From NCBI GenBank assembly GCA_965218885.1, contig OZ244713.1, positions 2,104,638-2,168,637 on the forward strand: 64,000 bases of DNA, in the 5' to 3' direction. Positions within the stretch are counted from its first letter, which is position 1; each line of letters opens with the position of its first letter. Of the stretch, positions 18,997-52,443 are shown piece after piece. The notes under the pieces are model-generated. The model did no database searches. It saw nothing but the letters and a program-made list of their open reading frames with translations, and was not told the origin of the DNA. The translations under genes were made by a program, and so were the position numbers. Source of the DNA: a bacterium (lineage in GTDB: Bacteria > UBA8248).

Positions 18997-19051
18997 AAAA
19001 CCTCGCCTCTCGCCCTACCCTCGGCCTATGAGAGCAGCCGCGCCGGCGGCG

Positions 19052-20314
19052 CTACCCCATGACGCGGCTGATAATCCGCTCGACTTCCGCGTCGGTCGCC
19101 AAGCTCTTCTCCTCGATCAACGCCCGAACGCCCGAGATGATCCGGTCCATCTGGGCCTCGTCCGCCTTTTTGCCCATCTGGTTCACCTTGGCGTCCAGGG
19201 GGCTGTCGGAGCCCTTTTGAAGCGCCGTGGGTCCATACACGATGCGCCTGCCGGCGCCGACGGTCTCCGAGCGCAGGTTCTCCCACAAAAACCAGTCCCC
19301 GCGCAGAATGCCGGGAATGTGGAGCCCGCCGTAGCTGAACATGTTGTGCCCCACCACCGGGGCGTTCTCGGCGACGGGAATCTCATAGAGTTCCGAGACG
19401 AGGCGGCTGAGTTCGGTGATTTTCTTCAGGTCGATTCCCGTCCGATACCCGAAGAAATACTCCAGCCCCACGGCGATCTGCTCGAAGCCCGCGTTGCCGC
19501 AGCGATGCCCCGTCCTGTTGATGCACACGTCGCACCCCATGGCGCCCGCCCTGATGCCCTCGAACGTGATGGCCGTGGCCAGGCCGAAATCGTCATGCGC
19601 ATGAACGGACACCTCTATCTTGTCATCGCTCGCCACACGCACGGCATGGACCACCATCGCCATCGTCTGCGGGAGGAACCACCCGCGCGGATCGTAGCAG
19701 ACCCACCTGTCCACGCCGGCGGCGACGGCGCGGCGAATCGTCTCGGGAATCAGGTCCGCGCGTGGATGATCCGTGCCGAAACCCACCTTGAGGCCCTTTT
19801 CCTTCGCGTAGGCGATGCACTCCTCCATCCGCACGAGAAACGACTCGCCCCGGAGCGTCGGGTGAAGCGCTTCTGTCATCGTGTAGCCCTGCATCCCTAC
19901 GAAATTCACCATGTCGGCCCCGCAACCGGCGATGCCGTCGATGTCGGATTTCCAGTTCGGGAGCCAGCAGCGCGCGTGCATGCCGCAAATGATTTTGGAG
20001 CCGCGCTTTTTGAGTTCACTCACGAATTTCTGATCATCGGGCAGCGAGCCGTAACCCACCTCGGCCTCCTGCACGCCCGCCTCATCGAGCAACTCGGAGA
20101 TCCGCAGCTTCTTCTCCACGCTCGCGTAAACGCCCGGCGTATTCGCGCCCGAGCGCAGCGTGTCGTCGCGCAAGACGATGCGCCGGGGCTGCGCGTTCAC
20201 GGCGTCAGGCACGGCCAGGGAGTTCATCGGGCTGGTTATCCAGCGGTGCTGCTCATCCAGCCGCGCATCGAGGTTCATGGCGTCCTGATCGACCCAGGAG
20301 GGAATCTCTTCCAT
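19052..20314 (-). CDS. DRE-TIM metallolyase (pyruvate carboxyltransferase/HMG-CoA-lyase-like domain protein).
   Basis: RDDTLRSG at the N-terminus resembles the RDGxQ motif. The HxH metal site (VHAHDDFG) is typical of HMGL-like/IPMS-fold enzymes. Confidence 0.55.
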   Translation of the reverse strand: MEEIPSWVDQDAMNLDARLDEQHRWITSPMNSLAVPDAVNAQPRRIVLRDDTLRSGANTPGVYASVEKKLRISELLDEAGVQEAEVGYGSLPDDQKFVSELKKRGSKIICGMHARCWLPNWKSDIDGIAGCGADMVNFVGMQGYTMTEALHPTLRGESFLVRMEECIAYAKEKGLKVGFGTDHPRADLIPETIRRAVAAGVDRWVCYDPRGWFLPQTMAMVVHAVRVASDDKIEVSVHAHDDFGLATAITFEGIRAGAMGCDVCINRTGHRCGNAGFEQIAVGLEYFFGYRTGIDLKKITELSRLVSELYEIPVAENAPVVGHNMFSYGGLHIPGILRGDWFLWENLRSETVGAGRRIVYGPTALQKGSDSPLDAKVNQMGKKADEAQMDRIISGVRALIEEKSLATDAEVERIISRVMG

Positions 20315-38953: not shown

Positions 38954-41254
38954 ATGGCGGAAGCCAAAGACATGGGCGGCGCCGTAATCGGCGAATCTCT
39001 GCCCTTTTTGGACGATCCCGAAAAGGCGACCGGCGCTGCGGATTATCTCGACGATCTCCAGCTACCGGGAATGTTAACGGGCAAGGCGCTTCGCAGCGAA
39101 TACGCGCATGCCGAGATATGTTCGATCGACACGCGCGAAGCCCTGCGCGTCCCCGGCGTCGTTGCCGTTCTCACGGGCGATGACCTGCCGAACCATTCCC
39201 ACATCATTCCCCACGAGCGGGCCATGCCCGTCATCGCCTACGACAGGGTGCGCTATATGGGCGAAGTGGTCGCCCTCATTGCGGCGGAGACGCTCGAGGC
39301 GGCCGAGGCGGCGATGCGGCTGATACAGGTCGAATACCGCCCCCTGCCCGTCGTCTCCGATCCGCGCGAGGCGATGAAGAGAGGGGCGGAAAAACTCTTT
39401 CCCGGTGGAAACGTCCTGAACCAGGCGAAGATACGGAAAGGGGATGTCGGTGACGGCTTCGAGAAAGCCGACGTGATTGTCGAGAATGAATACTCGACTC
39501 CCTCCGTCGATCATCTTTATCTCGAGGTGGAGGCGGCGTGCGCGAGTCCGAACCCCGGCGGCGGAATTCAAATCTGGGGCTCGACCCAGCAGCCCTTTCT
39601 GGTGCGGCAGAACGTCGCCCGGATGCTGGGGCTCAAGGGTGAGAGTTCGGTTCGTTTCGTCCAGACGATCACCGGCGGGGCTTTCGGCGGAAAGAGCGAA
39701 GCGAGTCTCGACGTGTGCCTGCGCGCCGCGGCGCTCGCCGATGCCGCGGGCAGGCCCGTGAAGCTCGTGTATTCGCGCGAAGAAAGCATGATCGCCTCCT
39801 CGAAGCGTCACGCCACGTTCATCCGCTCGAAAACGGGAGCGACGAAAGACGGCCGCCTGGTGGCCGTTGAAGTGGAGGTATGGCTCGACAAGGGGGCGTA
39901 TGCGGCCAACGGGGGGGATAATCCGCCCGCTTTCAAGCGCGCGACCTACCATGCCGCCGGTCCCTATCAGGTGGCCAACACGAAGGTGGACGTGCACTGC
40001 GTGCACACGAATCACCCCTACGGAGGCCAGATGCGCGGGCCGGGATGTCCCCAGGTTCACTTCGCAGGTGAGCAGCAAATCGATGAAATCGCCAAGGTAT
40101 TGGGTATGGACCCCATCGAGATCAGGCGTATCAACGGGCTCCGGGTCGGTTCCCGTACGGCGTGGAACCAGCATTTGCCCGAGAGCGTCGGTTTTCTCGA
40201 TACGCTGAAGGAAGTGGGGGAGGCCTCATCCTGGGGAAGAGAGGGTGATGGAAACCGGAGACACGAAGATGGCCGTTTGCGTGGGCGCGGCGTGGCGAGT
40301 TGTCTGTATGGGACGGGGAACGCCTATTCTCCGGCCGAGGCGCACGTTTTTCTCCGGGCGGACGGCAAGGTGCAGGTGGCCGCCGGGGTCGTGGATTTCG
40401 GCCAGGGGAGCAAGACGGTGCTTTGCCAGATCGCTTCGGAGACGCTGGATATCCCGTACTCCGAGTTTTTGATGGATAGCGTGGATACCGCCATCGATCC
40501 GTTTGGCGGCACCAGTTCGAGTTCCCGAATCACCATGCAGGGCGGAAAGGCGGTCTACAACGCTTCTCTCAAGGCGCGCGTCGAATTGTTGCGCCTCGGC
40601 GGAATTCTGCTGGAGGCGGACCCCGAAGATCTGGAATTGCGAGGCGGCGTGGTTCGTTCGCGCTCGTATGAGGAAACGAGCATCACGCTTGCCGAGATCG
40701 CCAAGGCGTTCGTCGCCGATGAACTCAAACAAATCGCCGCTGCGGACAGCATTCCACCGCCTGCGAAAACCGACAAGGAAACGGGCCTGGGCGAGCCGTA
40801 TGAAGTCTACGGATTCGGCAGCCAGGTGGCCGAGGTGCTGGTGGACGAAGAGACCGGAGAGGTGGAGATCACCGGCGTCTGGGCAGCGCACGACGTGGGC
40901 CGGGCGATAAGCCCCATGGGCGTGGAGCAGCAGATCGAGGGCGGCGTGTATATGGGCATCGGTTTTTGCATGATGGAGGAAGTCGTTCAGCGGGAGGGTT
41001 TGATGCAAAACCCCGACATGCACGGCTACCTCGCTCCGACGGTGGAGGACGTGCCGGACCGGGTGGCGTCCGTCATCGTGGAGGATTCCTACTCGAACGG
41101 CCCTTACGGGGCGAAGGGAGTCGGGGAGCAGGTGAATGTCCCCACCGCGGCCGCCATCGCCAATGCGATTTACGACGCCACGGGCGTCCGGTTCCATGAC
41201 TTGCCCCTGACGCCGGATAGAGTCGCGATGGCGCTTTTGAAGGCGAGGTCGTGA
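38954..41254 (+). CDS. Xanthine dehydrogenase/aldehyde oxidase-family molybdopterin-binding large subunit (CoxL/XdhA-like). No FeS or FAD subunit genes are adjacent.
   Basis: 766 aa with the a/b-hammerhead and MoCo-binding domains. The GGAFGGK-type motif (TGGAFGGKSE) is typical of the family. Confidence 0.75.
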   Translation: MAEAKDMGGAVIGESLPFLDDPEKATGAADYLDDLQLPGMLTGKALRSEYAHAEICSIDTREALRVPGVVAVLTGDDLPNHSHIIPHERAMPVIAYDRVRYMGEVVALIAAETLEAAEAAMRLIQVEYRPLPVVSDPREAMKRGAEKLFPGGNVLNQAKIRKGDVGDGFEKADVIVENEYSTPSVDHLYLEVEAACASPNPGGGIQIWGSTQQPFLVRQNVARMLGLKGESSVRFVQTITGGAFGGKSEASLDVCLRAAALADAAGRPVKLVYSREESMIASSKRHATFIRSKTGATKDGRLVAVEVEVWLDKGAYAANGGDNPPAFKRATYHAAGPYQVANTKVDVHCVHTNHPYGGQMRGPGCPQVHFAGEQQIDEIAKVLGMDPIEIRRINGLRVGSRTAWNQHLPESVGFLDTLKEVGEASSWGREGDGNRRHEDGRLRGRGVASCLYGTGNAYSPAEAHVFLRADGKVQVAAGVVDFGQGSKTVLCQIASETLDIPYSEFLMDSVDTAIDPFGGTSSSSRITMQGGKAVYNASLKARVELLRLGGILLEADPEDLELRGGVVRSRSYEETSITLAEIAKAFVADELKQIAAADSIPPPAKTDKETGLGEPYEVYGFGSQVAEVLVDEETGEVEITGVWAAHDVGRAISPMGVEQQIEGGVYMGIGFCMMEEVVQREGLMQNPDMHGYLAPTVEDVPDRVASVIVEDSYSNGPYGAKGVGEQVNVPTAAAIANAIYDATGVRFHDLPLTPDRVAMALLKARS

Positions 41255-41373
41255 TTTCGGGATTTTTTAATTCACTCACCGTTGCCGGCTCAGACGCCAG
41301 GAAAAATCTGTCCTAGAAATTGTATGTCACGCTCAGCGCGATGAAGCTGTCTAGCGGGTGAGACGAGCGCGCA

Positions 41374-43668
41374 TCATAATTCCTTCCGGTCGAGAGCCAT
41401 CAGCAGAGTCGGCAGAAGCAGGAAATCGGCCAAAAGCGCAAAGACGAGCGTGATCCCGACCAGAAGGCCGAGTGACCAACTGAGTTCGAATCCCGAGAAA
41501 GAGAACACCAGAAAGCCCAACGATAAAACCGCGGTCGTGGTCCACAGCGCATGACCTACGGTGTTGAAGGTGGCGCGTACCGCATCGGGCGGGGATAGAC
41601 CCTCCTCACGGCGGGTTTTCAGATATTTGCTCAGAAAGTGAATCGTGTCGTCCACGATGATTCCGAAGGCGATGGCGACGACGACCGAGGAGGCAATACC
41701 TACCCGGCCGACCAGATGACCCCACAGGCCGAAGCTCATGGCCGCGGGAATGAAGTTGGGCACCAGGCTGATCAGACCCAGGCGAATGCTTTTGAAAACC
41801 AGTATCAAAATGAACGAAATAAGGGCCATGGCGATGATCGTGCCGCGCAGCATGCTGTGGATGTTTCGTTGGGAAAGGTGGGCGAAGATCATGCTGATGC
41901 CCGACGCTTCGGCCGCGAATTCGGGTAAGTTGGCGCGGAGCCAGGCCTGTGCGCGTGCGTCGAGATCGCGGTGGTCCCGGGAGGATATGCTGCGGACCAC
42001 GACGGTCATGCGCGTTGTGGATTTGGAGACGTCGATGCGGTTGTTGAGGTCGCTGCCGAAGGGAAGCGAGAACTCGTAGAGCAACAGATATTGCGCGGCG
42101 AGTTTGGGGTTGTCCGGTATTTGGTAGAAGGCCGGATTATCCCCGTGCATGTTCTTGTTCAGGCGCTTCATGATGTCCGGGAAGGCACGGACGTGACTCA
42201 CTTGGGGCTGCTTCCTGTACCATTCTGCGAAGGCGTCGACTTTTTTCAGGTATGCGGGGTCGGTGATGCCGCCTTCGCGTCCCGCTTTCAGCGCGTATTC
42301 CAGCGAATCCACGCCGGTCAGGTTTTCGATGACGAAGTCCGTGTCGCGCCGGAACTCGTAGCGCTCGTCGAAATAGTGCGCCCATCTGTCGGTCAACTCG
42401 TTGCGGGGAATGCCGCTGATGAGAACAACCGTCAGAATGGCGATGAACCAGAGCAGAGGCGTGCGGCGCTCGACGACGAAAGCGCCGAAGCGGTCGAAGA
42501 AGGCGGGCCGCTCGGCGCGGCGGCGCGGCGCGCGCAGCGGCAGGATGGAAAGCAGCGCCGGCAGAAGCGTCATGGAGTAGACGAAGGCGCACACCACGCC
42601 GAACGCCACGAAATTGCCCAGGACGTGAAAAGGCGGCGAATCCGAGGCGTTCAGGCTCAAAAATCCGATCACGGTCGTGATCGAGGTCAGGAACACGGGC
42701 CAGACGTTCTCTCGAAACGATTCCGCGATCGCCGCGTTCCTGTCTAGCCCACGCCCCATGCCCATCAGCGTGGCCGTGACGATGTGGACCGAATGGGCGA
42801 CGGAAACCGCCATAATGATGATCGGGACACCGGAATTGGCGGGGCTGAACACCGTGCCGAGCCAGCCTGCGACCCCCATGGTGTTCATGACGATGAACAC
42901 GAGCGCGATGATGATGGACAAGGTGCCGAGCACAGAGCGCAGGAGGAGTATGGTGGTGGCTACGATGATGAGAAACACAATCGGCGTGAGGATTTCGAGA
43001 TCGTCCTTCGTGGCGTCGGAGAAGGCGCGATGCATGACGACGTCGCCGGTCAGGTAATAGGCGATGTCCGGATGTTTCGCGCGCGCCTCCTTCAAAGCGG
43101 CGTTCAGATAATCGTTTATTTCGAGCACCGCGGCGTCGAGGTTGTCAGGCAGGATGAAAGTGACGGCCAGAGCTCCCACGCGTCCGTCGCGGGAGACGAG
43201 GCGCCCGGCGATTTCTGTGGCGCCCAGCGCGATTTTCCTGATTAGCGCGAGGTCGGCGTCTGTAAGCGCGCTCGCGTCGTCGACGAGCGGCTCGACAATC
43301 AGATCGTCTCCCTCCGCCCGGCTGTGGGAATAGTTGGTGAGGGAGTCGACCCGGCTGGAATGTGGCGTCTTCCACGCGGCTTTGGTCAGATCCTCGATAG
43401 CGCCGAGCGCCTCTTTGGTGAACACCGAGCCTTTTCGGGGCGCGATGGCGATGAGCGCCGTGTCGGATGTGGAGAAGGTGTTCTCGAGCGCGTTGAAAGC
43501 GGCGAGTTGCGGATTGTTTTCGCCGAACATAATGCGGTAATCGTTCGTGGTCTTGATGAAGCGCCCGCCCCCCGCCGTGATCAGCATGAGCAGCGTGGCG
43601 AGCGCGACGACCAGCCACCGATGGCGCAGAACGACGTCGATATAGCGGTCCAATTGCACGGGATTCAT
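41374..43668 (-). CDS. RND-superfamily MMPL-type exporter (COG1033-like). This is copy 1.
   Basis: 764 aa with two 6-TM bundles and two periplasmic domains. It is ~60-70% identical to 48450-50738. Confidence 0.8.
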   Translation of the reverse strand: MNPVQLDRYIDVVLRHRWLVVALATLLMLITAGGGRFIKTTNDYRIMFGENNPQLAAFNALENTFSTSDTALIAIAPRKGSVFTKEALGAIEDLTKAAWKTPHSSRVDSLTNYSHSRAEGDDLIVEPLVDDASALTDADLALIRKIALGATEIAGRLVSRDGRVGALAVTFILPDNLDAAVLEINDYLNAALKEARAKHPDIAYYLTGDVVMHRAFSDATKDDLEILTPIVFLIIVATTILLLRSVLGTLSIIIALVFIVMNTMGVAGWLGTVFSPANSGVPIIIMAVSVAHSVHIVTATLMGMGRGLDRNAAIAESFRENVWPVFLTSITTVIGFLSLNASDSPPFHVLGNFVAFGVVCAFVYSMTLLPALLSILPLRAPRRRAERPAFFDRFGAFVVERRTPLLWFIAILTVVLISGIPRNELTDRWAHYFDERYEFRRDTDFVIENLTGVDSLEYALKAGREGGITDPAYLKKVDAFAEWYRKQPQVSHVRAFPDIMKRLNKNMHGDNPAFYQIPDNPKLAAQYLLLYEFSLPFGSDLNNRIDVSKSTTRMTVVVRSISSRDHRDLDARAQAWLRANLPEFAAEASGISMIFAHLSQRNIHSMLRGTIIAMALISFILILVFKSIRLGLISLVPNFIPAAMSFGLWGHLVGRVGIASSVVVAIAFGIIVDDTIHFLSKYLKTRREEGLSPPDAVRATFNTVGHALWTTTAVLSLGFLVFSFSGFELSWSLGLLVGITLVFALLADFLLLPTLLMALDRKEL

Positions 43669-43798
43669 CGCCTCGGTATCACGGGCCGGGTGCGGCTAGG
43701 GGCTCACCGATTCGAGCGCGCGGCACCATCGACGCGACCAGGCTTTCTTTTGACGGATGGAGACGGGCGCGCCACGATACGCACAATATGAACATCGC

Positions 43799-44965
43799 TT
43801 ACCAGTCGCTTGATTCTGCCGTGTGTACGTGGTCGGGCATCTTGTAACTCAGTCCACCTTCGTCGTACACCGAGATTTGGATAAGCTGGGAGAAATTCTG
43901 TGATCTGACGAACTGTTTGTTCTTCAAAAATCGCTGGATGCGTTGTTTCAGCCGGAAACTGAACAGGGTCGTCGCGTTTTCAAAGAAAGAGAACCTCGGA
44001 AAATCGAACTGTTCGGCGAGGTCTTTTCCAATCAACGACCGCGAAAGGCGGTAGGCCAGATTCGTCAACTCTTTCTGCTCATCCGGATCCGTTACGCCCG
44101 CGACTATCGGAATGGCCGTGATCAGCGTATTCGCCACGGCTACCGAGTCGGCGTCCGCCCGGGGTTCGCACATATAGCCGATCTCGTATATTTTTTGCGC
44201 CTCAGCACCTGTGGTATAGAGGATGGTTTCGGGTATCCCCATGAGATAGCCGGCGTAGCGCCAAATGGCGAGAACGCTTTCTTGTTCTTCCTTGTTGTAG
44301 CGCGCGCCCATCGCCATCGAGTATTCCAACAGGCGCATGGAGAAGACGGAGATGGCGAAACCCAGGTGCGCCGCGCTTACCGGCGCGCCCCAGGCTCCGT
44401 GGTCCCAATCCTCGGATTGATTCAGCAGGTGCCTGATTCGGGCATGAATGAAGCGAATGCGCATGGACAGCTTCCATCCATCGCCGTTTCTCAACATGCC
44501 ACCCGGGAAAAATATCTCCATCATGTGGCGGTTGTTCTGCTGGAGGCGTCTTTTGGTCATCGCCACTCGCCCGGTAATCGAGAAAGACTTGGCGATGAGC
44601 GTCGAGAAGCCCTCCACCAGCACTCCCGTAACGAATGCGGTGAGCATGAGGTCTACGTTTACGTTAAAGGAGCGAATCCCTGGCTGGAAGGCTTTGTAGC
44701 CGAGCCAGGGAGGTTCTTCGAAGTTGTTGAAGAAATCGCGCAGGATTTTTGGCGCAATAGCCAGAGTCTCATCCTGCTGCTCTATGCCGGCCTCGACGAA
44801 CCGATGCAGGATCCTGGGAGGCAACGAGGAGAGTTCCTCCATGATCTCGTCCATCACGGGGTCGCCAATCATGGTGTGCTTGATATAGTTGTCGGCCGCG
44901 GCTTTATCGCGGGGAAGAACCTTCTTCTCGTAACCCTCAACGTATGCCGATGGGATTTCCGTCAT
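43799..44965 (-). CDS. Hypothetical protein, possibly DUF2236/MpaB-like. It was not confidently recognised.
   Basis: ORF of 388 aa with good coding look. No motif was confidently identified. Confidence 0.3.
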   Translation of the reverse strand: MTEIPSAYVEGYEKKVLPRDKAAADNYIKHTMIGDPVMDEIMEELSSLPPRILHRFVEAGIEQQDETLAIAPKILRDFFNNFEEPPWLGYKAFQPGIRSFNVNVDLMLTAFVTGVLVEGFSTLIAKSFSITGRVAMTKRRLQQNNRHMMEIFFPGGMLRNGDGWKLSMRIRFIHARIRHLLNQSEDWDHGAWGAPVSAAHLGFAISVFSMRLLEYSMAMGARYNKEEQESVLAIWRYAGYLMGIPETILYTTGAEAQKIYEIGYMCEPRADADSVAVANTLITAIPIVAGVTDPDEQKELTNLAYRLSRSLIGKDLAEQFDFPRFSFFENATTLFSFRLKQRIQRFLKNKQFVRSQNFSQLIQISVYDEGGLSYKMPDHVHTAESSDW

Positions 44966-45189
44966 CTTATCAGACCCTCTCTGATGTTTATCTACATGCG
45001 TTCACGAATCTACAAGACTTTAGAAATATGAAGCCATCTTGAAAAAAGTCAAGAGCTCATACTCGTCAGCGTAGATAGAACTTAGAGAATGCCCTCGTGA
45101 AGGTAACTTCTGCACCCGTTTGTTCCATTTTTCTTTAACATATCCTTACAACTTGTTTAATATACTATCCATGCGTTCTCTTATGCAAT

Positions 45190-45330
45190 AGATTTTTCAG
45201 CCGATTCCGGACGGGTATCCCAGCCTCTTGGTTCGCCCACAATTCCTGCGACAGGATTCACGCGGAATCTCTCACCCTTTGTCCCAAGGGTGAGACGAGC
45301 GCGCCCTATCACTCCCTCCGGTCGATGGCC
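45190..45330. repeat. ~230-nt repeat unit (degenerate livF 3'-end remnant, a short hairpin and the last ~8 codons plus 3' flank of an MMPL gene). Related copies lie at ~48340-48470 and ~47940-47990, in part at ~50950-51050 (the intact livF end), and at the 3' end of MMPL copy 1 (~41345-41410).
   Basis: Shared strings were read directly: ...tttcagccgaKYccggacggg...cctcgttcgcccMMaattSc...aggattcacgSg...ccctttgYYccaagggtRagaYgRgc...tcactccYtccgRtcRatggcc. Minus-strand translation of the 45300-45330 copy gives ...AIDRRE*, the MMPL C-terminal motif. Confidence 0.6.
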
Positions 45331-45772
45331 CTCACCGCGCCGCTTCCTCATGGAGTGCCTGCGCATGTACCCGATTGTCCCGATGTCTATGCGAGACGTG
45401 ATGAATTCGTTTGTGGTCGAGGGCTACGAACTACCGGTGGGGTCACGGATCTACATTGCCCAGACGGCCTCGCATTACGTGGACGACGTCTTCCCGGACC
45501 CCTACTCATTCGATATCGATCGCTATCTGCCTCCACGCAACGAGCACCGCAGTCCCGGGTACGCGCCGTACGGGCTGGGCACGCACACGTGTCTCGGCTC
45601 CCGGTGGGTGGAGCTGCAACTGGCCGTCAACGTGCTGATGGTCGCGCATTACTTTACCCTCGAGGTGTCCCCCGCGAACTATAAGCTCCGGTTCAGCCCG
45701 CTTCCGTCGATGAAACCGAGCAAAAAGCTGAAGTTCCACATCACCGGGCAGAAGCGCGAACTGCCCGTCTGA
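45326..45772 (+). pseudogene. Cytochrome P450 C-terminal fragment (~140 aa including the heme-binding loop). The N-terminal ~260 aa are missing.
   Basis: It has the ExxR motif (ECLRMYP), a PERF-like region and the heme Cys loop YGLGTHTCLGSRW. The homology starts abruptly at a junction with an MMPL 3'-end remnant. Confidence 0.7.
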
Positions 45773-45902
45773 CGCACCAGGGCCTCCGGATCCGGGGCAC
45801 GGGGTAGGTGGGTTTTCCGCACTTGAACACCTTCTGCGCACAAGTCCGAAGGTGTCCACCAAAACGGGGTAACTCCAGGCACAGAGGCAAGAAAAATCTG
45901 CT

Positions 45903-47159
45903 CTAGAAGTTGTACGTCACGTTCAGCGCCACGAAGCTGTCTCGCCTCGTGTCATAGATGATGTCCTCTTCGTCGACATCCATGAGAACAATCGCTTCGA
46001 GCTTCAGGGACCACTGGTCCGAAAGTCGGCGTCTCATTTCGATGCTCAGGGTGCGTGTTGTATGATCCGCGTCCGCGAGAACACCGGCGATGAGTTCCGT
46101 GCTCTGGGTGTCGTTCAGCGCAAGGCGAACGGCGTAGAAGAGGTCGTTCTGGAACTCGGAGTTCGAACGCAGTCCCCGCTCGTCGTAATTCCATTCGGCG
46201 AGCAGGCCGAGATCGGCGGCCGAGCCCCAGATGGAGTTGAAGGTGTATTCACCCCCGATAACGAAAGCGGCGTAGTCTTCTTTCACGCCCCGGAGGTTTC
46301 GGGCGCCTTCGCGCTGAAGGGCTTCCAACTTGAACAGCCAAGACTCCACGGTAAACTGGGCGTCCACGCTGAACTGGCGCATCTGCTCGTAGTGTTGGCT
46401 TAAGGTCACCGCGCCGCGAGAGTCCACGCGCGGCATGAAAAAAGGCTCCCGGCTGGTGCCCTCGAATACGCTGAGCCCTAAATCGAAAGGCCCGAAGCTG
46501 TGGCTGTAGCGCGCCGCGAGGTCCACGCGCCACTCCTTGGCGGCGCTTTCGTATGAAACGTGCTCATCGTCTATGAGAATCGAGGAGCGCAGGCGGCCAT
46601 GGCGGCCCGGGAAGGTGCGCGCGCGGTGATAGGTCAGGGCGAAAAATTCCAGGATGCCCCACTCCGCCGACCAGGTGAGGTGGGCCATGGGCTGGCCCAG
46701 TTTGGCCTCTTTGTTCGGATGTTCGATGAGGTCGGTCTGGTTGATGATGTCGACCAAGTGCTGCGATTCGGTGACTCCCCAGAACACGCGGTCCACACCC
46801 AGTCGTAACTCCCATTCCCCATGGCTGATTTCACCAAACACCAAGAGATAGGCTTCGCGCAGATCGGCATGGGTGCGGCGCGAGTCCGCCCCGTCGTAGC
46901 GAAAAAACGGCGCGATCGTGAAACTCCAGTTGCCCTCGTCTTTGAGATGGAGTTTCGGCTCGGCGGCGAAACCGCTCACATGTGCGCGCTGGCCGGGATG
47001 GGCCGCGTCCTGGGGATACCACCGGCTGTCGACGTCCAGGCTGCCGGAGAGTTCGTGCTCGATGCTTTCGGCCCCGTGGCTCGACCCGGCGAAAAAGAAA
47101 ACAGCCAGGAAGGGGACGGCGGCGAGCACCGCGCGGTGAAGAGCGGCGCGCAGCGGCAT
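45903..47159 (-). CDS. Outer-membrane beta-barrel protein with a signal peptide and a C-terminal aromatic residue.
   Basis: It has a signal peptide, alternating amphipathic strands and a C-terminal ...VTYNF. It is cotranscribed with the LolA-like gene and an MMPL gene. Confidence 0.5.
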   Translation of the reverse strand: MPLRAALHRAVLAAVPFLAVFFFAGSSHGAESIEHELSGSLDVDSRWYPQDAAHPGQRAHVSGFAAEPKLHLKDEGNWSFTIAPFFRYDGADSRRTHADLREAYLLVFGEISHGEWELRLGVDRVFWGVTESQHLVDIINQTDLIEHPNKEAKLGQPMAHLTWSAEWGILEFFALTYHRARTFPGRHGRLRSSILIDDEHVSYESAAKEWRVDLAARYSHSFGPFDLGLSVFEGTSREPFFMPRVDSRGAVTLSQHYEQMRQFSVDAQFTVESWLFKLEALQREGARNLRGVKEDYAAFVIGGEYTFNSIWGSAADLGLLAEWNYDERGLRSNSEFQNDLFYAVRLALNDTQSTELIAGVLADADHTTRTLSIEMRRRLSDQWSLKLEAIVLMDVDEEDIIYDTRRDSFVALNVTYNF

Positions 47160-47977
47160 CAGCGCACCCGTTTCAGCCCGGTCCGGGTGAAGTCGCGGTC
47201 TTTGAGGTTGGTGCGGAACTTGTAGTCCTTCCAGCGCAGCACGGTGCTTTTGCCCGTCAGGTGGTTCACCATCTTCATTTCGCTGGCCTGCCAGTAGCGA
47301 TCCAGATACTTCTTGTATTTCCCCAGCGTGAGCGTCTTTAAGTGTGAGTTCTTCCGGTCGTAGTACTGCACCTTCCAGGCGCGAAGATCGCCCTTATCCT
47401 GCCAGACGATTTGGCGCCGGTAGCCCGACCTCTTGCTCACAGGGAAGCGCTCGACGACCGTGCAGGTCAGTTTGCCGCAAGCCTCATCGCGCAGGTAGCG
47501 GTATGTGTATTTCTCCACCTCCTGGGTGCCCATGTCCTCATAAGCGAATTCGCTTCCCATGAATGAGCCGGATTGGTTCGACGAACTGATGCGCTTGACC
47601 CGTTTGAGAGCGGGCAGGTAGAGCCATTGATCGTCGTTCTTCTTCTTGTGTGTGTGGACGAGCAGCGCGGTGCCTTTGACGTCGCGCGGGCGATCGAAGA
47701 CGAACAGGCTCTTGTTGCCTCCTCCGTCCGTCTCGAGAACCTTCACGCGGAGCCGGCGCCGGCTCTCCTGCCCGTGCTTGTTGCGCAGCACCATGTTCTG
47801 CTCGGCCGTGAAATTCCCAAAACCTTTCGCTTTCTCGCGGGTCTCGCTAGCGATCTTCAGCCCTTTTTCTTCGGGCGTCGCGCCCTCGGCACTCGGCGGG
47901 GCAAGCGGATGAACCAGAACGCAAGCGCAGATCGCGAGAAGCAGGAGAGTCGAGCGGGCGAGACGAGCGTGCATCAT
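47159..47977 (-). CDS. Outer-membrane lipoprotein-sorting (LolA-like) family protein, commonly partnered with COG1033 RND exporters.
   Basis: It has a signal peptide. The family assignment rests on overall similarity and context, so confidence is moderate. Confidence 0.45.
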   Translation of the reverse strand: MMHARLARSTLLLLAICACVLVHPLAPPSAEGATPEEKGLKIASETREKAKGFGNFTAEQNMVLRNKHGQESRRRLRVKVLETDGGGNKSLFVFDRPRDVKGTALLVHTHKKKNDDQWLYLPALKRVKRISSSNQSGSFMGSEFAYEDMGTQEVEKYTYRYLRDEACGKLTCTVVERFPVSKRSGYRRQIVWQDKGDLRAWKVQYYDRKNSHLKTLTLGKYKKYLDRYWQASEMKMVNHLTGKSTVLRWKDYKFRTNLKDRDFTRTGLKRVR

Positions 47978-48180
47978 GGTTCCCTCCTGTCGATGGCCAT
48001 CAGCAGAGTCGAGAAAAGCAGAAAATCGGCCAGGAGCGCGATAACAATCGTTATCCCGAGCAGGAGGCCGAGCGCCCTGTCATTTGCCAATCCCGATGCG
48101 GCGAAAGCCATGAAACCCAGGGCAAAAACAGCGGTTGTCATACATAACGCATGGCCTGCGGTGCGAAAGACTGACCGCAC
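47974..48180 (-). pseudogene. MMPL exporter C-terminal fragment (last ~68 aa).
   Basis: MRSVFRTAGHALCMTTAVFALGFMAFAASG...LLADFLLFSTLLMAIDRREP aligns with the C-termini of both full MMPL copies. Confidence 0.75.
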
Positions 48181-48449
48181 GGCCTCGGGCGACGAAAACC
48201 CCTCTTACCGGGCATTCTTTCGAAAAGCCGTTAAAATACCCTCTTAAATGCTTGCCTGCAATTATTTGTTTCAGGGCTCCTTACAACTTCTTTCCATTTC
48301 CTTGACATCTTATCAAATTCGTTCATCAGCGCAATATGCATTTCAGCCGAGCCCGGACGGGTTTTCCGGCTTCCTCGTTCGCCCCAAATTGCCCGGCAGG
48401 ATTCACGGGCAGTCCAGTACCCTTTGCTCCAAGGGTAAGATGGGCATCA

Positions 48450-50738
48450 TCACTCCTTCCGATCAATGGCCATCAGCAGAGTCGGCAGAAGCAGAAAATC
48501 GGCCAGGAGCGCGAAGATGATCGTGATCGACACCATCAGGCCGAGCGCCCTGCTGCCCTCGAATCCCGATAAGGCGAATACCAGGAAACCGAGCGTCAAG
48601 ACCGTGGTTGTCGTCCATAGCGCCTGGCCTACGATTCGAAAGGTGGCGCGCACGGCCTCGGGTGCTGCGAGGCCCATGCGTCGGGCATTGAGATATCGGC
48701 TCATGAAGTGAATCGTATCGTCCACGATGATACCGAATGCGATGGCGCTCATCACGGAGCCGGCGAGACCCACGCGACCAACCAGATAGCCCCACAGGCC
48801 GAAGGTCATGGCCGCGGGAATGAAGTTGGGCACGAGGCTGATGAGGCCCAGGCGGACGCTTTTGAAAACCAGGATCAGGAGGAAAGAGATGAGCAGCATG
48901 GCGATGATCGTGCCGCGCAGCATGCCGTGGATATTTCTCAGGGAAAGATGCGCGAAGATCATGGTGATGCCCGACGCCTCGTCCGCAAATTCGGGTATGT
49001 TGGCGCGGAGCCAGCCCTGTGCGCGCTCGTCGAAATCGCGCTGGTCCCGGGAGGAGAGGCTGCGAATCACGACGGTCATGCGCGTCGCGGATTTCGCGAC
49101 GTCGATGCGGTTGTTGAGGTCCATACCGAAGGGAAGCGAAAACTCAAAGAGCAGCAGATATTGCGCGGCGAGCCTGGGATCTTCAGGGATTTTATAAAAG
49201 GCCGGGTCGTCGCCGTGCATGTTCTTGTTCAGGCGCTTCATGATGTCCGAAAAAACCTGGACTTGAGTCACTTCGGTTTGTTTCCGGCACCATTCGGCGA
49301 ATGCCTCGACTTTTCTCAGGTATTCAGGCTCGGTGATGCCGCCTTCGCGCCCCGCTTTCAGCGTGTATTCCAGGAAATTGAGACCGGTCATGTTTTGGGT
49401 GATGAAATCCGTGTCGCGCCGGTATTGATAGCGTTTGTCGAAGTTGTGCGCCCACCTCTCGGTCAACTCGTTGCGGGGAATGCCGCTGATGAGAACGAGC
49501 GCCAGGATGGCGACGAACGAGAGCAGAAACGCGCGACGTTTGACCACAAAAGCGCCGAAGCGATCGAAGAAGGGGGATTTATCGGAGGGAATTCGGCGCG
49601 CGCGCAAGGGCAGAAGCGATAGCAGCGCCGGTAGCAGGGTCATCGAATAGATGAAGGCGCAGACCACGCCGAGCGCCACGAAATTGCCCAGGATGCGAAA
49701 GGGAGGCGAATCCGAGTAGTTCAGGCTGAGAAACCCTATGGCAGTCGTGAGCGAGGTCAGAAACACCGGCCAGGCGTTGCTGCGAAGCGATTCGGCAATC
49801 GCCTTATCCTTGTCCAACCCATGGCCCATGCCCAGCAGAGTGGTCGTGATGATGTGGACCGAGTGGGCGACGCATGTCGCCATGACGATGGTCGGTACAC
49901 CGGCGTTGGCGGGGCTGAACACCGTGCCGAGCCAGCCCGCGATTCCCATGGTGGTCGTGACGACGAACCCGATCACGACGATGATGGACACCGTGCCGAG
50001 AAGCGAGCGCAGGAGAAGGGTGGTGGTGGCGATGATCATGAGAAACGCGATTGGACCCAGGGTGACGAAATCATCGAAAGTCGCCTCGGCGAAGGCGCGG
50101 TTGAGGATCACGTCGCCGCTCATGTAGTAGGCGATGTCCGGGTGTTTCGTCCGGGCTTGCTTCAGAAGAGCGTTCAGATAGTCGCTTATCTTGAGGACCG
50201 CGGCGTCCATGTTGTCGGGCAGGATGAAACTAATCGCCAGCCCGCCCACGCGCTCGTCGCGGGAGACGAGACGTCCGGCCAGGTCGGCCGATTCAAGCGC
50301 GATTTTCCTGATTCGCGCGATGTCGGCATTGCTCAGCGAGCGCGCGTCGTCGACGAGCGGCTCGACGATCAATTCATCGCCCTGCGCACGGCTGTGCGTG
50401 TAATTCGTAAGGGAGTCGACCCGTCTGGAATGAGGCGTTCGCCAAGCGGCTTCCGTCAACTCCTCGAGCGCGCCGAGCGCCTCGCGGGTGAAAACCGATC
50501 CCTTTCGAGGAGCGATGGCGATGAACACCATGTTGGATGTGGAAAAAGTGTTCTCCAGGGCCTTGAAAGCGGCGAGTTGCGGATTGTCTTCGCCGAACAT
50601 GATGCGGTAATTGTTCGTGACGGTGATGAAGAGCGCGCCGACTCCCGTGACCAGCATGATCGATACGGCCAGCGCGACCACCGGCCACCGATAGCGAAGA
50701 ACGGCGTAGATGTAGCGATCCAATTGCACGGGAGTCAT
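48450..50738 (-). CDS. RND-superfamily MMPL-type exporter (COG1033-like). This is copy 2.
   Basis: 762 aa and collinear with copy 1. The 5' leader region is shared. Confidence 0.8.
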   Translation of the reverse strand: MTPVQLDRYIYAVLRYRWPVVALAVSIMLVTGVGALFITVTNNYRIMFGEDNPQLAAFKALENTFSTSNMVFIAIAPRKGSVFTREALGALEELTEAAWRTPHSRRVDSLTNYTHSRAQGDELIVEPLVDDARSLSNADIARIRKIALESADLAGRLVSRDERVGGLAISFILPDNMDAAVLKISDYLNALLKQARTKHPDIAYYMSGDVILNRAFAEATFDDFVTLGPIAFLMIIATTTLLLRSLLGTVSIIVVIGFVVTTTMGIAGWLGTVFSPANAGVPTIVMATCVAHSVHIITTTLLGMGHGLDKDKAIAESLRSNAWPVFLTSLTTAIGFLSLNYSDSPPFRILGNFVALGVVCAFIYSMTLLPALLSLLPLRARRIPSDKSPFFDRFGAFVVKRRAFLLSFVAILALVLISGIPRNELTERWAHNFDKRYQYRRDTDFITQNMTGLNFLEYTLKAGREGGITEPEYLRKVEAFAEWCRKQTEVTQVQVFSDIMKRLNKNMHGDDPAFYKIPEDPRLAAQYLLLFEFSLPFGMDLNNRIDVAKSATRMTVVIRSLSSRDQRDFDERAQGWLRANIPEFADEASGITMIFAHLSLRNIHGMLRGTIIAMLLISFLLILVFKSVRLGLISLVPNFIPAAMTFGLWGYLVGRVGLAGSVMSAIAFGIIVDDTIHFMSRYLNARRMGLAAPEAVRATFRIVGQALWTTTTVLTLGFLVFALSGFEGSRALGLMVSITIIFALLADFLLLPTLLMAIDRKE

Positions 50739-50972
50739 TGTCTTGCCATCACGGTTGAGTGCGGCGGCAGGTCACCGATTCGAGTCCACGACTCCCTCGC
50801 CGCGGCTTGGTTTTCTTCGGGTGATGGAGAGAGGCGCGCCAGAGTTCGAACTCGTTTTCTGGTATGAAACTTTGGAAACGCCCTCGTGGAACCACCTCTT
50901 CGTTCATCTGTTTCACTTCCGACGCAACTATCCAACCATACTATGAAAACATTTCGTTTTGCGAGGTTTTTT

Positions 50973-51683
50973 TCAGCCGATGCCCAGGTGGGTTTTTCTG
51001 ACTTCCTCGTTCGCCCACAATTCCCCCGGCGAGGATTCATGGACGACCTTTCCGTTCGCGATGACGCAAACCCTGTCCACCGTCTTGACGGCGAAGGCGG
51101 CGTTTTGCTCGACGAGCACGACGGCGAGTCCTTCGGCCTTGAGTGATTGTATGGCGTTTCCGATGTCCTGGATGATCATGGGCGCCAGCCCTTCGGAGGG
51201 CTCATCGAGAATGAGGCAACTCGGGTTGGTCATCAGGGCGCGGCCCACGGCCAGCATCTGTTGCTCGCCGCCCGAGAGGGAACCCGCCCGCTGGTTGGCT
51301 CGCTCCCCGAGACGGGGGAAGAGTTCGTAGACTTCCTTGAAATCCCAGCGATAGCCCACGTCGTGTTCCTGCTGGGCCACCAGTAGGTTTTCGCGCACCG
51401 AGAGGGTCGGGAACACGCGCCTTCCCTGCGGGCACAGGCCGATTCCCATTTTAGAGATGTCGAAGCTGCTTGTGGTGGTGATGTCTTCTCCCCGGAAATG
51501 GATGGCGCCCCGCCTCGGCGGCACGAAACCCATGATCGAGTTGATCAGCGTCGTCTTGCCCATGCCGTTTCTGCCGAGAATGCCCAGCGTCTCCCCCTCG
51601 TCGACGTGGATGCTCAAACCCTGTAGGACGTAGGAATCGCCGTAGTAGGTATGAATGTCGCTCACGCTCAGGAGGGCCGACAC
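50973..51683 (-). CDS. livF: Branched-chain amino acid ABC transporter ATP-binding protein LivF.
   Basis: Walker A GRNGMGKTT and the signature LSGGEQQMLAVGRAL. Confidence 0.85.
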   Translation of the reverse strand: MSALLSVSDIHTYYGDSYVLQGLSIHVDEGETLGILGRNGMGKTTLINSIMGFVPPRRGAIHFRGEDITTTSSFDISKMGIGLCPQGRRVFPTLSVRENLLVAQQEHDVGYRWDFKEVYELFPRLGERANQRAGSLSGGEQQMLAVGRALMTNPSCLILDEPSEGLAPMIIQDIGNAIQSLKAEGLAVVLVEQNAAFAVKTVDRVCVIANGKVVHESSPGELWANEEVRKTHLGIG

Positions 51684-51684
51684 G

Positions 51685-52443
51685 TCATTCCGCCTTTCCG
51701 AGGTAGATTTCCTGCACCTTGGGGTCGTTGCGGATGTCGTCGCTGGGCCCCTCGGCGAGAACCTCGCCGTAGTGTAGAACGCTGATGTGGGAGACGACCT
51801 CGAATATGACGTCCAGATCGTGCTCGATGATGAGAATGGCTATTTCCGGATCGAGTGATTTCAGGAAATTGGCCATCTCGTGGGATTCTCCCGTGGCCAG
51901 GCCGGCGGAGGGTTCGTCGAGAAGCAAAACCTTGGGGTCGCTCGCCAGGGCGAGGACGATTTCGAGTTGGCGCTGTTCTCCGTGGGAGAGGTTGCGGACT
52001 TCCTGGTCTCTCAAATGCCAGAAGTTGACATCGCTGAGCAGTTTTTCGGCTTTTTCATACACGTCCTTGTACATGAAGAGGGGTTTCAGCATCATCATCT
52101 TCATCTTCCGCAAGCCCTGCACGGCGAGCAGAACGTTCTCGAGCACGGTGAGCCTGGGAAACAGGCTGGTGATCTGAAAAGTGCGCGCCATGCCCAAGGC
52201 CACGCGCTTGTGGGTGGCCCACCCCGAGACATCCTGTCCGAAAAGGCGGATGCGGCCCGAGGTGAGTGGAAGCACGCCCGTTATCAGGTGAAACAAGGTG
52301 GTCTTCCCCGCTCCGTTCGGCCCCAGGATTCCCCGCCGCTCGCCGAGGCTCAGGCGCAGGTTCACGTCCTCGACGGCGTGGAGGCCGCCGAAATGCTTGG
52401 TGACGCTCTCCAGTTCCAGCCCTGGTTGCTGCCCGTTCGCCAA
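51685..52443 (-). CDS. livG: Branched-chain amino acid ABC transporter ATP-binding protein LivG.
   Basis: Walker A GPNGAGKTT and the signature LSHGEQRQLEIVLAL. Confidence 0.85.
   Translation of the reverse strand: MANGQQPGLELESVTKHFGGLHAVEDVNLRLSLGERRGILGPNGAGKTTLFHLITGVLPLTSGRIRLFGQDVSGWATHKRVALGMARTFQITSLFPRLTVLENVLLAVQGLRKMKMMMLKPLFMYKDVYEKAEKLLSDVNFWHLRDQEVRNLSHGEQRQLEIVLALASDPKVLLLDEPSAGLATGESHEMANFLKSLDPEIAILIIEHDLDVIFEVVSHISVLHYGEVLAEGPSDDIRNDPKVQEIYLGKAE

What the first reader, a model, noticed from the sequence alone, without database searches (positions are those of the whole stretch)
41340..51060. Tandem array of MMPL exporter modules scarred by repeated recombination at the MMPL 3' end
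There are two full MMPL genes (41374-43668 and 48450-50738), one C-terminal fragment (47974-48180) and one ~8-codon stump (45303-45330). Each is followed by the same 3'-flank motif (gggtgagacgagcgcgc or a variant), and in two cases by a hairpin (ccctt-N6-aaggg) and a degenerate livF 3'-end remnant. The leaders upstream of both full copies are also homologous. The organisation looks like serial head-to-tail duplication of a [livF-end/leader, MMPL, 3'-flank] unit, followed by deletions. Alternatively it is cassette-like recombination that exchanges MMPL-associated partner genes (LolA-like plus beta-barrel, or DUF2236-like). The repeatedly used junction right at the MMPL stop codon suggests a preferred recombination site.
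Basis: seen in the sequence. Interest (0 to 1): 0.6.

Follow-up and report, generated by a model that had tools for sequence, protein, structure and literature searches.

The report
Decaying tandem array of lipid-exporter operons
This region is the worn-down remains of a four-gene membrane lipid-transport operon that was copied head-to-tail several times next to the livF gene and then eroded by deletions and crossovers; the erosion differs in almost every related genome examined, but the process itself is ordinary gene-family turnover.

Summary
There are two intact MMPL genes, a 77-codon MMPL tail, a ~10-codon stump, repeated junction motifs, two livF 3'-end remnants and homologous leaders, all on the minus strand and all above chance.

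It is the first 8 codons of the LolA-like gene, whose start overlaps the MMPL stop.

The ancestral unit is a four-gene operon: MpaB/Lcp-like oxygenase, MMPL (HAE3 RND), LolA-like protein and a DUF1302-like outer-membrane barrel. It is intact in 56 of 82 related loci from many phyla.

One composite junction, J, marks the unit boundaries. J is the MMPL end plus LolA' (22 nt), about 14 nt of filler, the last 79 nt of livF and a leader. It occurs 1-3 times in every syntenic relative, so it formed once and was then amplified.

Eight close relatives (91-96% nt) show seven further layouts. These include single B/A hybrid MMPL genes, microhomology deletions and a 100% gene-conversion tract.

Serial duplication plus deletion is supported. 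A dedicated recombination site is not: no recombinase gene is present, the hairpin is not conserved, and breakpoints are scattered.

Verdict: a new member of a known kind, of moderate interest.

The parts
50971..51051 (-). Last 79 nt of the intact livF gene (gene 50973-51683). This is the source sequence of the livF' remnants.
   Evidence: ABC_tran Pfam hit. Positions 64-142 of the J profile align here at E 5.8e-17.
50739..50972 (-). Leader of MMPL-B. D_B is the distal part, ~150 nt, homologous to D_1 and D_2. It is fused to P_B (50739-50841), which is homologous to the MpaB-MMPL-A spacer. I read it as a D-MpaB-P unit that has lost MpaB.
   Evidence: Self-BLAST extends to 50841/43774. D_B versus D_2 alignment has z 2.8; the L007 equivalents give z 5.8.
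48450..50738 (-). MMPL-B, an intact HAE3/MMPL RND transporter with a sterol-sensing domain (762 aa).
   Evidence: PF03176 and PF12349. TIGR00921 HAE3 is the best NCBIfam hit. Orthologs in relatives are 84-87% nt identical.
48341..48476 (-). Junction J1. It comprises the MMPL-B end, LolA' (48433-48450, ATGATGCCCATCTTACCC), filler with a 7-bp hairpin (48418-48437), and a livF' remnant (48341-48408).
   Evidence: Full-length J-profile hit, E 1.1e-32. Sequence read directly.
48205..48340 (-). D_1, a copy of the leader/promoter-like region. It is now placed upstream of the MMPL tail and the LolA-barrel pair.
   Evidence: 93-95% identical in L002 and L011. Homologous to D_2 (z 5.6).
47974..48204 (-). 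MMPL C-terminal tail (pseudogene fragment, ~77 codons). It retains the AGGAGG Shine-Dalgarno sequence and the ATGA stop/start overlap for the LolA-like gene.
   Evidence: 70-75% identical to both MMPL-A and MMPL-B. Frameshifted in L002. Sequence read directly.
47159..47977 (-). LolA-like periplasmic protein (272 aa). It is the only intact copy in the window.
   Evidence: PF17131 E 1.7e-62; DUF1329 at 30.9 bits.
45903..47159 (-). DUF1302-like outer-membrane beta-barrel (418 aa, ends ...TYNF). It is the only intact copy in the window.
   Evidence: Weak PF06980 hit, but many homologs carry PF06980. The AF2 model is an all-beta barrel with pLDDT 72. It matches porins and AlgE with TM up to 0.56.
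45773..45902 (-). 3' flank of the barrel gene. Its first ~28 nt are homologous to the flank in scar 3.
45325..45772 (+). Cytochrome P450 C-terminal pseudogene. It is the remnant of an accessory island that is intact in L011.
   Evidence: PF00067 profile positions 327-458. L011 has a full 568-aa P450 plus OMP, Rieske/KshA_C and FAD oxidase genes. The deletion junction was read.
45195..45334 (-). MMPL stump (45303-45334) plus junction J2. J2 comprises LolA' (45288-45304), a 10-bp hairpin (45270-45295) and a livF' remnant (45193-45260).
   Evidence: Full-length J-profile hit, E 4.4e-33. Shared with L110 and L113.
44966..45192 (-). D_2, the leader upstream of MpaB.
   Evidence: 92% identical in L011. 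Homologous to D_B and D_1.
43799..44965 (-). MpaB/Lcp-like oxygenase (388 aa). It is the only copy in the window.
   Evidence: PF09995 E 1.7e-17.
43669..43798 (-). P_A, the spacer/leader between MpaB and MMPL-A. It is homologous to P_B.
   Evidence: (D20).
41374..43668 (-). MMPL-A, an intact HAE3/MMPL RND transporter (764 aa).
   Evidence: PF03176 and PF12349. 93-97% nt identical to orthologs in L002, L011, L109, L110 and L113.
41287..41377 (-). Scar 3. LolA' (41354-41377, MMRARLTR then TAG) is fused to the last ~41 nt of a barrel gene (41314-41353) and its 3' flank.
   Evidence: 41287-41355 versus 45878-45945, 83%, E 8.6e-13. Sequence read directly. The same scar is in L113. L041 also keeps a barrel-end remnant next to MoCo.
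38954..41254 (+). Convergent molybdenum hydroxylase large subunit. It is the conserved right-hand border of the variable locus.
   Evidence: Pfam. Syntenic in all relatives.

Best explanation
The region is a decaying tandem array of one conserved operon.

The operon encodes:
- an MpaB/Lcp-like oxygenase;
- an HAE3/MMPL RND inner-membrane pump;
- a LolA-like periplasmic carrier whose start codon overlaps the pump's stop codon;
- a DUF1302-like outer-membrane barrel.

How the array arose (inferred from the shared junction and its distribution):
- In an ancestor of this lineage the operon sat directly downstream of livF.
- A segment was amplified head-to-tail. It began 79 nt before the livF stop and ended ~22 nt into the LolA-like gene.
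- Every unit boundary therefore carries the same composite junction J: MMPL end, LolA' stump, ~14 nt filler, livF' remnant, leader.

How it was edited afterwards:
- unequal homologous crossovers between the ~80%-identical MMPL paralogs (shown in relatives);
- microhomology-mediated deletions (shown);
- gene conversion (shown);
- gain and loss of an accessory oxygenase island (shown).

What the window retains:
- two intact pumps;
- one each of MpaB, LolA-like and barrel;
- an MMPL tail that still supplies the ribosome-binding site and coupled start for LolA;
- an MMPL stump;
- a P450 pseudogene;
- a LolA'/barrel' deletion scar.

Inferred function: the two pumps share the single LolA-barrel pair to move a hydrophobic, probably isoprenoid- or sterol-like, substrate across the envelope. 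Each of the three transcription units is driven by a copy of the duplicated leader.
For: Repeats and their identities.

The motif is the LolA start:
- direct reading of the sequence;
- conserved LolA N-termini in other loci;
- ATGA overlap in 57 and a 1-nt overlap in 4 of 65 LolA starts.

Canonical four-gene order: 56 of 82 loci.

J composition by nhmmer:
- positions 1-49 match the MMPL end plus LolA 5' end (E 1e-7 to 1e-10);
- positions 65-142 match the last 80 nt of livF (E 1e-14 to 1e-19).

J distribution: present in every syntenic genome. Window, L002, L011, L109 and L110 have two full copies each; in L110 the second, J3, follows MMPL-A. L041 has three. The distant relatives have one.

All three units start with homologous D leaders.

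Structural states in close relatives:
- L109 is window-like without the P450 fragment.
- L110 and L113 lack MMPL-B through a deletion at a 7-nt GTTTCAT microhomology.
- L111, L112 and L114 carry a single B/A hybrid MMPL, with different switch points.
- L002 has LolA1 = LolA2 at 100%.
- L011 has the full island.

Function: Pfam and NCBIfam assignments and the barrel model.
Against: - The order of events is inferred, not shown.
- The internal LolA-barrel pair and the MMPL tail are not simply explained by a unit that ends inside LolA. The tail is equidistant (70-75%) from MMPL-A and MMPL-B. They need a second, larger duplication or an import.
- The window's MpaB/MMPL-A pair is closer to an unlinked module (L001: 79% and 84% nt) than to the syntenic MpaB of distant relatives (74%). 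This points to replacement by transfer.
- Three distinct junction types truncate LolA within ~8 nt of each other. Pure chance would not predict this.
- Promoter function of the D leaders is not supported by the consensus scan.
- No expression or substrate data exist.
Confidence: 0.72

Rival explanations
1. The MMPL-stop/LolA-start sequence is a preferred recombination site. Modules and partner genes are exchanged there in a cassette-like way, and this produces the repeated junctions.
For: - Three junction types break LolA at nt ~21-29: J, the window/L113 scar 3, and the L011/L070/L111/L112 type.
- The L002 conversion tract and the window's apparent loss of J3-MpaB2-MMPL-D both end in the last ~30-90 nt of MMPL.
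- That stretch is a local island of high paralog identity: 0.85-0.87 against 0.81 overall, after a trough of 0.69-0.74.
- L083 and L084 independently keep a 50-nt MMPL stump before LolA.
- The window-clade segment LolA-barrel-P450-...-FADox-stump-LolA' is colinear, in circular permutation, with the L083 order FADox-stump-LolA-barrel-P450.
Against: - J1, J2, J3 and the J of distant relatives share the filler and livF' parts, so they are copies of one event.
- The L011/L070-type flank aligns to the J profile through the filler (position 61). This suggests the same ancient truncation.
- The hairpin is not conserved.
- No integrase, transposase or recombinase appears in any +-10 kb gene table.
- Most strain-level breakpoints lie elsewhere.
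- Selection alone may explain the clustering: it would keep the coupled start and lose the signal-peptide core.
Confidence: 0.15
2. The array was built mainly by repeated horizontal acquisition of separate, already diverged modules at one insertion-prone locus, rather than by amplification in place.
For: - The module family is 67-75% aa identical across many phyla.
- MMPL-A, MMPL-B and the tail are mutually 70-80% identical, as different as modules from other genomes.
- The window's MpaB is 74% nt identical to the syntenic MpaB but 79% to that of unlinked L001.
- The accessory island is present or absent among sisters.
Against: - Every unit boundary carries a remnant of livF, the local neighbour. 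An imported module would not bring this.
- The D leaders of all units are homologous to the one after the real livF.
- The two ideas are not exclusive. Amplification followed by replacement of some units fits best.
Confidence: 0.2
3. The repeated structure is an assembly artefact: a chimeric or mis-joined repeat.
For: None found. The source contig could not be retrieved.
Against: - The repeats are only 72-83% identical, too diverged to mis-assemble.
- Scar 1, the MMPL tail, J2 and scar 3 recur in independent assemblies from other samples.
Confidence: 0.02

Closest known systems
Tandem segmental gene amplification with subsequent birth-and-death decay (unequal crossing-over between paralogs; established bacterial genetics, my own knowledge)
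   Same: - The units are head-to-tail.
- One novel junction is shared by all unit boundaries.
- Copy number varies among relatives.
- Hybrid genes arise from crossovers between paralogs.
- Microhomology deletions and gene-conversion tracts are present.
   Different: - The amplification is old: units are 70-83% identical. It is fossilised across species rather than transient.
- The units have decayed in a complementary way, so one full operon's worth of genes plus an extra pump survives.
AmeABCD of Castellaniella defragrans: an HAE3 RND pump with a DUF1302 outer-membrane protein and a DUF1329/LolA-like protein (PMC6394551). The cofit DUF1302/DUF1329/BNR/RND genes of Pseudomonas are related (bioRxiv 10.1101/2020.07.04.188060).
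   Same: An HAE3/MMPL-type RND pump is encoded together with a LolA-superfamily periplasmic protein and a DUF1302-type outer-membrane barrel. It is linked to the metabolism of hydrophobic isoprenoid substrates.
   Different: - Gene order is reversed (pump first).
- There is no AmeC/BNR (COG4447) component.
- The LolA-like protein is the short PF17131 type (272 aa against 451).
- The barrel is 418 aa against 605.
- An MpaB/Lcp-like oxygenase leads the operon.
- Function is untested.
HpnN hopanoid transporter / BstA sterol transporter (HAE3 RND)
   Same: These are the best-scoring named RND relatives after the generic HAE3 model. A sterol-sensing domain is present.
   Different: Scores are far below the family cut-offs (99.7 against 751.85 bits for HpnN; 27.8 against 1400 for BstA). 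The partner genes are different.
Integron cassette arrays
   Same: A row of same-orientation units, each ending in a similar short sequence with, in two cases, a hairpin.
   Different: - There is no integrase.
- The hairpin is not conserved.
- The shared sequence is coding DNA of the next gene plus a remnant of the neighbouring livF.

Membership tests
Tandem segmental amplification | Units are in head-to-tail orientation. | tested here: met
   All MMPL copies, remnants and J junctions lie on the minus strand in the same order.
Tandem segmental amplification | The same novel junction lies between units, made of the two ends of the amplified segment. | tested here: met
   J is the LolA 5' end joined to the livF 3' end. 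Copy numbers: two in the window, three in L041, and a further one (J3) after MMPL-A in L110.
Tandem segmental amplification | Copy number is polymorphic among relatives, with recombinant (hybrid) genes. | tested here: met
   Relatives carry one to four MMPL units. B/A hybrid MMPL genes with different switch points occur in L111, L112 and L114.
Integron-like / site-specific cassette system | A site-specific recombinase gene is adjacent to the array. | tested here: not met
   Pfam annotation of all array ORFs and of the gene tables within +-10 kb in six relatives shows none.
Integron-like / site-specific cassette system | A conserved structured recombination site lies at each unit end. | tested here: not met
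   The consensus fold of 11 J copies gives -1.65 kcal/mol with no hairpin at the LolA' position. Stems differ or are absent in relatives.
Dispersed REP/MITE repeat (as the origin of the motif) | Copies are scattered in unrelated intergenic regions. | tested here: not met
   Both motifs occur only at MMPL ends or at livF within the 64-kb window. In relatives they always follow an MMPL end.
AmeABCD-type HAE3 export system | HAE3/MMPL RND inner-membrane pump. | tested here: met
   PF03176 at 133.7 and 91.8 bits, above the cut-off. TIGR00921 HAE3 is the best NCBIfam hit but falls below its cut-off.
AmeABCD-type HAE3 export system | LolA-superfamily (DUF1329) periplasmic partner. | tested here: met
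   PF17131 E 1.7e-62. PF07044 (DUF1329) at 30.9 bits, above the 23.1 cut-off, though it covers only part of the profile.
AmeABCD-type HAE3 export system | DUF1302 outer-membrane protein. | tested here: inconclusive
   The window protein scores 17 bits, below the 23.2 cut-off. About a third of its close homologs carry PF06980. The model is an outer-membrane beta-barrel.
AmeABCD-type HAE3 export system | BNR/COG4447 (AmeC) fourth component. | tested here: not met
   No such ORF exists in the array or in the canonical modules. The fourth gene is an MpaB/Lcp-like oxygenase.
AmeABCD-type HAE3 export system | Transport of or tolerance to hydrophobic terpenoid substrates. | not testable with these tools
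   Only gene context bears on this: MpaB/Lcp-like, P450, Rieske/KshA_C and FAD oxidase neighbours.

The most novel reading that the evidence does not exclude
The highly conserved MMPL-stop/LolA-start overlap may act as a recombinase-free 'splice point'. Its features are the last ~50 nt of the pump gene, a Shine-Dalgarno sequence, and the first 8 codons of LolA. At this point diverged HAE3 lipid-transport modules and their accessory oxygenase islands would be swapped by short-homology recombination, within genomes and between phyla of sponge symbionts. The result would be a modular, rapidly diversifying envelope lipid-handling locus.
Probability: 0.15. Interest if true: 0.6.

Novelty: new member of a known kind. 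Interest (0 to 1): 0.38.

Why it matters
**A documented case of operon amplification and decay.** One junction sequence can be traced through about 15 genomes. Closely related genomes (91-96% nt) show nearly every possible intermediate, including collapse to a single hybrid pump gene. This makes it a useful natural data set on how unequal crossover, microhomology deletion and gene conversion reshape operon arrays.

**An unstudied module.** The work exposes an uncharacterised four-gene module: MpaB-like oxygenase, MMPL, LolA-like protein and barrel. It is shared at unusually high identity across many phyla of apparently sponge-associated bacteria. Its rapid turnover suggests changing selection on handling of a hydrophobic substrate, possibly terpenoid or sterol.

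**Limits.** The finding does not reveal a new recombination mechanism.

Tried and rejected
- **Rfam.** A scan of 41000-51500 at E<=1 gave only two sub-threshold snoRNA-like chance hits inside MMPL-A. No known RNA element lies in the leaders or junctions.
- **Promoters and terminators.** The sigma-70/terminator consensus scan found 4 promoter-like and 10 terminator-like sites, no more than in shuffles. None coincides with the conserved TTGCRY...TATATT block of the leaders or with the two hairpins. Promoter and terminator roles therefore remain inference.
- **Hairpin conservation.** The test for conservation and covariation across 11 J copies was negative.
- **Barrel remnant in J.** I tested whether the J filler contains a barrel remnant. 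There was no nhmmer signal.
- **Source contig.** Exact look-ups of the window's own LolA-like and MMPL-A proteins were not on record, so the source sample and organism name are unknown.
- **Metagenome scan.** A scan with the LolA-like protein gave no relative closer than those already found. It did yield L083 and L084.
- **Donor of the J2 patch.** A search for the donor of the window-specific J2 'patch' (45247-45345) gave only a 38-nt match to the L070 MMPL-A end.
- **Leader comparisons.** Leader (D) identity comparisons meant to decide orthology of D_1 and D_2 were too noisy (all 67-79%).
- **Literature.** Searches for MMPL + LolA + sponge and for DUF2236 + MMPL gave nothing.


Full report
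**1. Observation**

All genes of the region run on the minus strand. Reading 5' to 3' on that strand the order is as follows.

| Element | Coordinates |
|---|---|
| livG | 51685-52443 |
| livF | 50973-51683 |
| leader | 50739-50972 |
| MMPL-B | 48450-50738 |
| junction J1 | 48341-48476 |
| leader copy D_1 | 48205-48340 |
| MMPL C-terminal tail | 47974-48204 |
| LolA-like gene | 47159-47977 |
| barrel gene | 45903-47159 |
| barrel 3' flank | 45773-45902 |
| P450 fragment (opposite strand) | 45325-45772 |
| MMPL stump + junction J2 | 45195-45334 |
| leader copy D_2 | 44966-45192 |
| MpaB-like gene | 43799-44965 |
| spacer P_A | 43669-43798 |
| MMPL-A | 41374-43668 |
| scar 3 | 41287-41377 |
| convergent Mo-hydroxylase gene | 38954-41254 |

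- Self-BLAST gives MMPL-A against MMPL-B at 79.8% over 2404 nt, including ~105 nt of leader.
- The tail is 72-76% identical to both MMPL ends. J1 against J2 is 73.6% over 140 nt.
- 41287-41355 matches 45878-45945 at 82.6%.
- Motif counts exceed shuffles: 4 against 0.62 for the 17-mer and 3 against 0.01 for the livF 22-mer.

**2. What the '3'-flank motif' is**

On the coding strand the motif reads GCGCGCTCGTCTCACCC. At 47977 it is the start of the intact LolA-like gene (ATGATGCACGCTCGTCTCGCCCGC = MMHARLAR), whose ATG overlaps the TGA of the MMPL tail.

- The same arrangement holds in related operons from many phyla. There is a 4-nt ATGA overlap in 57 and a 1-nt overlap in 4 of 65 LolA starts.
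- The last codons of MMPL (GAC AGG AGG GAA) contain the Shine-Dalgarno sequence for LolA.
- Each occurrence of the motif after an MMPL end is therefore a stump of the next gene, not a flank.

**3. The unit**

Mapping the window's proteins on 82 loci found with MMPL-A shows the order MpaB-like, MMPL, LolA-like, barrel in 56 of them. The loci come from Latescibacterota, Acidobacteriota, Nitrospirales, Binatia, Alpha- and Gammaproteobacteria, Opitutales and others.

- MMPL is an HAE3-type RND protein with a sterol-sensing domain.
- The LolA-like protein is PF17131 (E 1.7e-62).
- The barrel hits DUF1302 only weakly, but many close homologs carry that domain.
- The barrel's AlphaFold model (pLDDT 72) is an outer-membrane beta-barrel. 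It is most similar in TM-score to AlgE (0.56) and to general porins.

**4. The junction J and synteny**

The frame liv operon ... Mo-hydroxylase is conserved in more distant genomes that carry MMPL-B, J, MpaB and MMPL-A between the two borders. Some of these are titled Nitrospinota, and their liv genes are 90-94% nt identical to the window's. They are L004, L005, L007, L051, L070, L041, L043 and L048.

- All of them have, after MMPL-B, the same composite: ATGATG-LolA' stump, ~14 nt, then a livF 3'-end copy, then an AT-rich leader.
- A profile of 11 J copies aligns positions 1-49 to the MMPL end plus LolA 5' end (E 1e-7 to 1e-10). Positions 65-142 align to the last 80 nt of livF (E 1e-14 to 1e-19).
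- Full J copies number two each in the window, L002, L011, L109 and L110, three in L041, and one in each distant relative. In L110 the second copy, J3, follows MMPL-A.
- One junction that joins the two ends of a segment and is repeated between units is the signature of tandem amplification. The amplified segment ran from 79 nt before the livF stop to ~22 nt into LolA.
- The leaders after the real livF (D_B), after J1 (D_1) and after J2 (D_2) are homologous for ~125-170 nt.
- D_B then jumps to the MpaB-MMPL spacer P, so MMPL-B has lost its MpaB. D_1 jumps into the MMPL tail, so the middle unit has lost MpaB, P and about 690 codons of MMPL.

**5. Variation among close relatives**

The 90%-identity cluster of MMPL-A holds 29 sequences on several ~4-Mb contigs. 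Six of these, plus L002 and L011, give the following layouts.

| Locus | Layout relative to the window |
|---|---|
| L109 | As the window, but almost the whole accessory island is deleted by another route (barrel flank joined to the last ~110 nt of the FAD-oxidase gene). The scar after MMPL-A is different. |
| L110 | MMPL-B deleted. Keeps the P450 fragment and stump. Carries J3, MpaB2 and an internally deleted MMPL after MMPL-A. |
| L113 | The same MMPL-B deletion. A longer P450, an OMP gene and a truncated Rieske gene. |
| L011 | Full island: P450, OMP_b-brl, Rieske/KshA_C and FAD amine oxidase. |
| L002 | No island. A second LolA 100% identical to the first, plus the first ~70 nt of a barrel gene. 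|
| L112, L114 | livF, leader, then one intact MMPL. |
| L111 | The same, but mosaic and frameshifted. |

- The single MMPLs are B-like at the 5' end and A-like thereafter. The switch point is ~200 nt into the gene in L112 and ~500-650 nt in L114. These are independent unequal crossovers.
- The L110/L113 deletion joins D_B to the tail at a 7-nt GTTTCAT microhomology.
- The window's P450 truncation joins at GCGCG.
- Scar 3 joins LolA GCTCGAC to barrel GCGAGAC.
- L110's MpaB2 is 86-91% nt identical to the MpaB of the distant relatives, while the window's MpaB is only 74%. The window has therefore lost the unit next to the Mo-hydroxylase gene. The last ~30 nt of its MMPL-A look like L110's MMPL-D end, which suggests a crossover in the conserved 3' end.

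**6. Reconstruction (inferred)**

- An operon next to livF was amplified to several units.
- The last unit kept LolA-barrel next to the Mo-hydroxylase gene. A barrel-end remnant survives there in the window, L113 and L041.
- Units then decayed in complementary fashion.
- The internal tail-LolA-barrel segment, followed by the island and a stump, needs either a second, larger duplication or an import from a configuration like L083/L084. There, FAD oxidase, a 50-nt MMPL stump, LolA, barrel and P450 are colinear with the window-clade segment in circular permutation.

**7. Is there a preferred site?**

Most of the apparent reuse is descent from one junction.

- The flank after MMPL-A in L011, L070, L111 and L112 aligns to the J profile through the filler (position 61, 33-35 bits). 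This suggests that the LolA truncation predates the amplification.
- The hairpin is specific to a few copies, and no recombinase gene is nearby.
- Still, J, the window's scar 3 and the L011/L070-type scar all cut LolA at nt ~21-29. Two other events end in the last 30-90 nt of MMPL, a local peak of paralog identity.
- Selection may contribute: a deletion must spare the MMPL stop, and a stump that stops at the boundary between the charged and hydrophobic parts of the signal peptide may be harmless.
- I give a true hotspot about 15%.

**8. Function (inferred)**

- By analogy with AmeABCD (PMC6394551) and HpnN, the pump passes a hydrophobic substrate to the LolA-like carrier and the barrel.
- The MpaB/Lcp-like oxygenase and the P450, Rieske/KshA-like and FAD-oxidase island point to isoprenoid- or sterol-type compounds.
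- In the window, two pumps would share one carrier-barrel pair.

**9. Verdict**

The region is a real, well-resolved example of an amplified and decaying operon array. It is not a new kind of element.

Noticed in passing
Loci L008-L082; window 41374-47977: The four-gene module (MpaB-like, MMPL, LolA-like, barrel) is 67-75% aa identical (MMPL) across at least ten phyla of MAGs. Isolate names and ankyrin-repeat neighbours look like marine-sponge symbionts. Identity this high across phyla suggests horizontal spread of an uncharacterised lipid-transport operon within one habitat.
   Followed up: partly
L011:2977-8399; L083:5360-6886 and 9524-11569; window 45325-45772: An accessory island (cytochrome P450, OMP_b-brl, Rieske/KshA_C-like oxygenase, FAD amine oxidase) accompanies the module in some genomes. 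The P450 carries an N-terminal GPP34 (Golgi phosphoprotein 3-like) domain (E 3.5e-26 in L083). This is a eukaryote-type domain and unusual in bacteria.
   Followed up: partly
L004:12289-13120, L007:12280-13400, L011:12315-12752, L051, L006, L070: In relatives the spacer between MMPL-A and the Mo-hydroxylase gene is packed with REP/MITE-like palindromic repeats (GGGGTTGTTGAAAAA, CCCCCCTTGTCAGGGGGG, TGTAGGGGCCGCA...TGCGGCCC). L007 has a perfect 62-nt inverted repeat (12468-12529 / 13192-13253). The window has none there.
   Followed up: no
L002:12763-13581 and 18840-19658: Two LolA-like genes in one genome are 100% identical, while the adjacent MMPL genes are ~83% identical. This is a very recent gene-conversion or copy event.
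   Followed up: yes
L011 MpaB (8766-9927), L109 and L113 barrel, L113 MMPL-A, L111 MMPL, L002 MMPL tail: Several module genes in relatives are split by frameshifts. This may be real pseudogenisation of a dispensable system or indel errors of long-read assemblies. The window's copies are intact.
   Followed up: no
window 48450-50738 vs L002:10001-12292: MMPL-B is only 87% nt identical to its L002 ortholog, while the flanking liv genes are 92-96% and MMPL-A is 95%. MMPL-B either evolves faster or has been partly exchanged.
   Followed up: no
window 50735-51040 (minus strand): A 101-aa ORF overlaps the livF end and the MMPL-B leader. It is probably spurious and was not tested.
   Followed up: no
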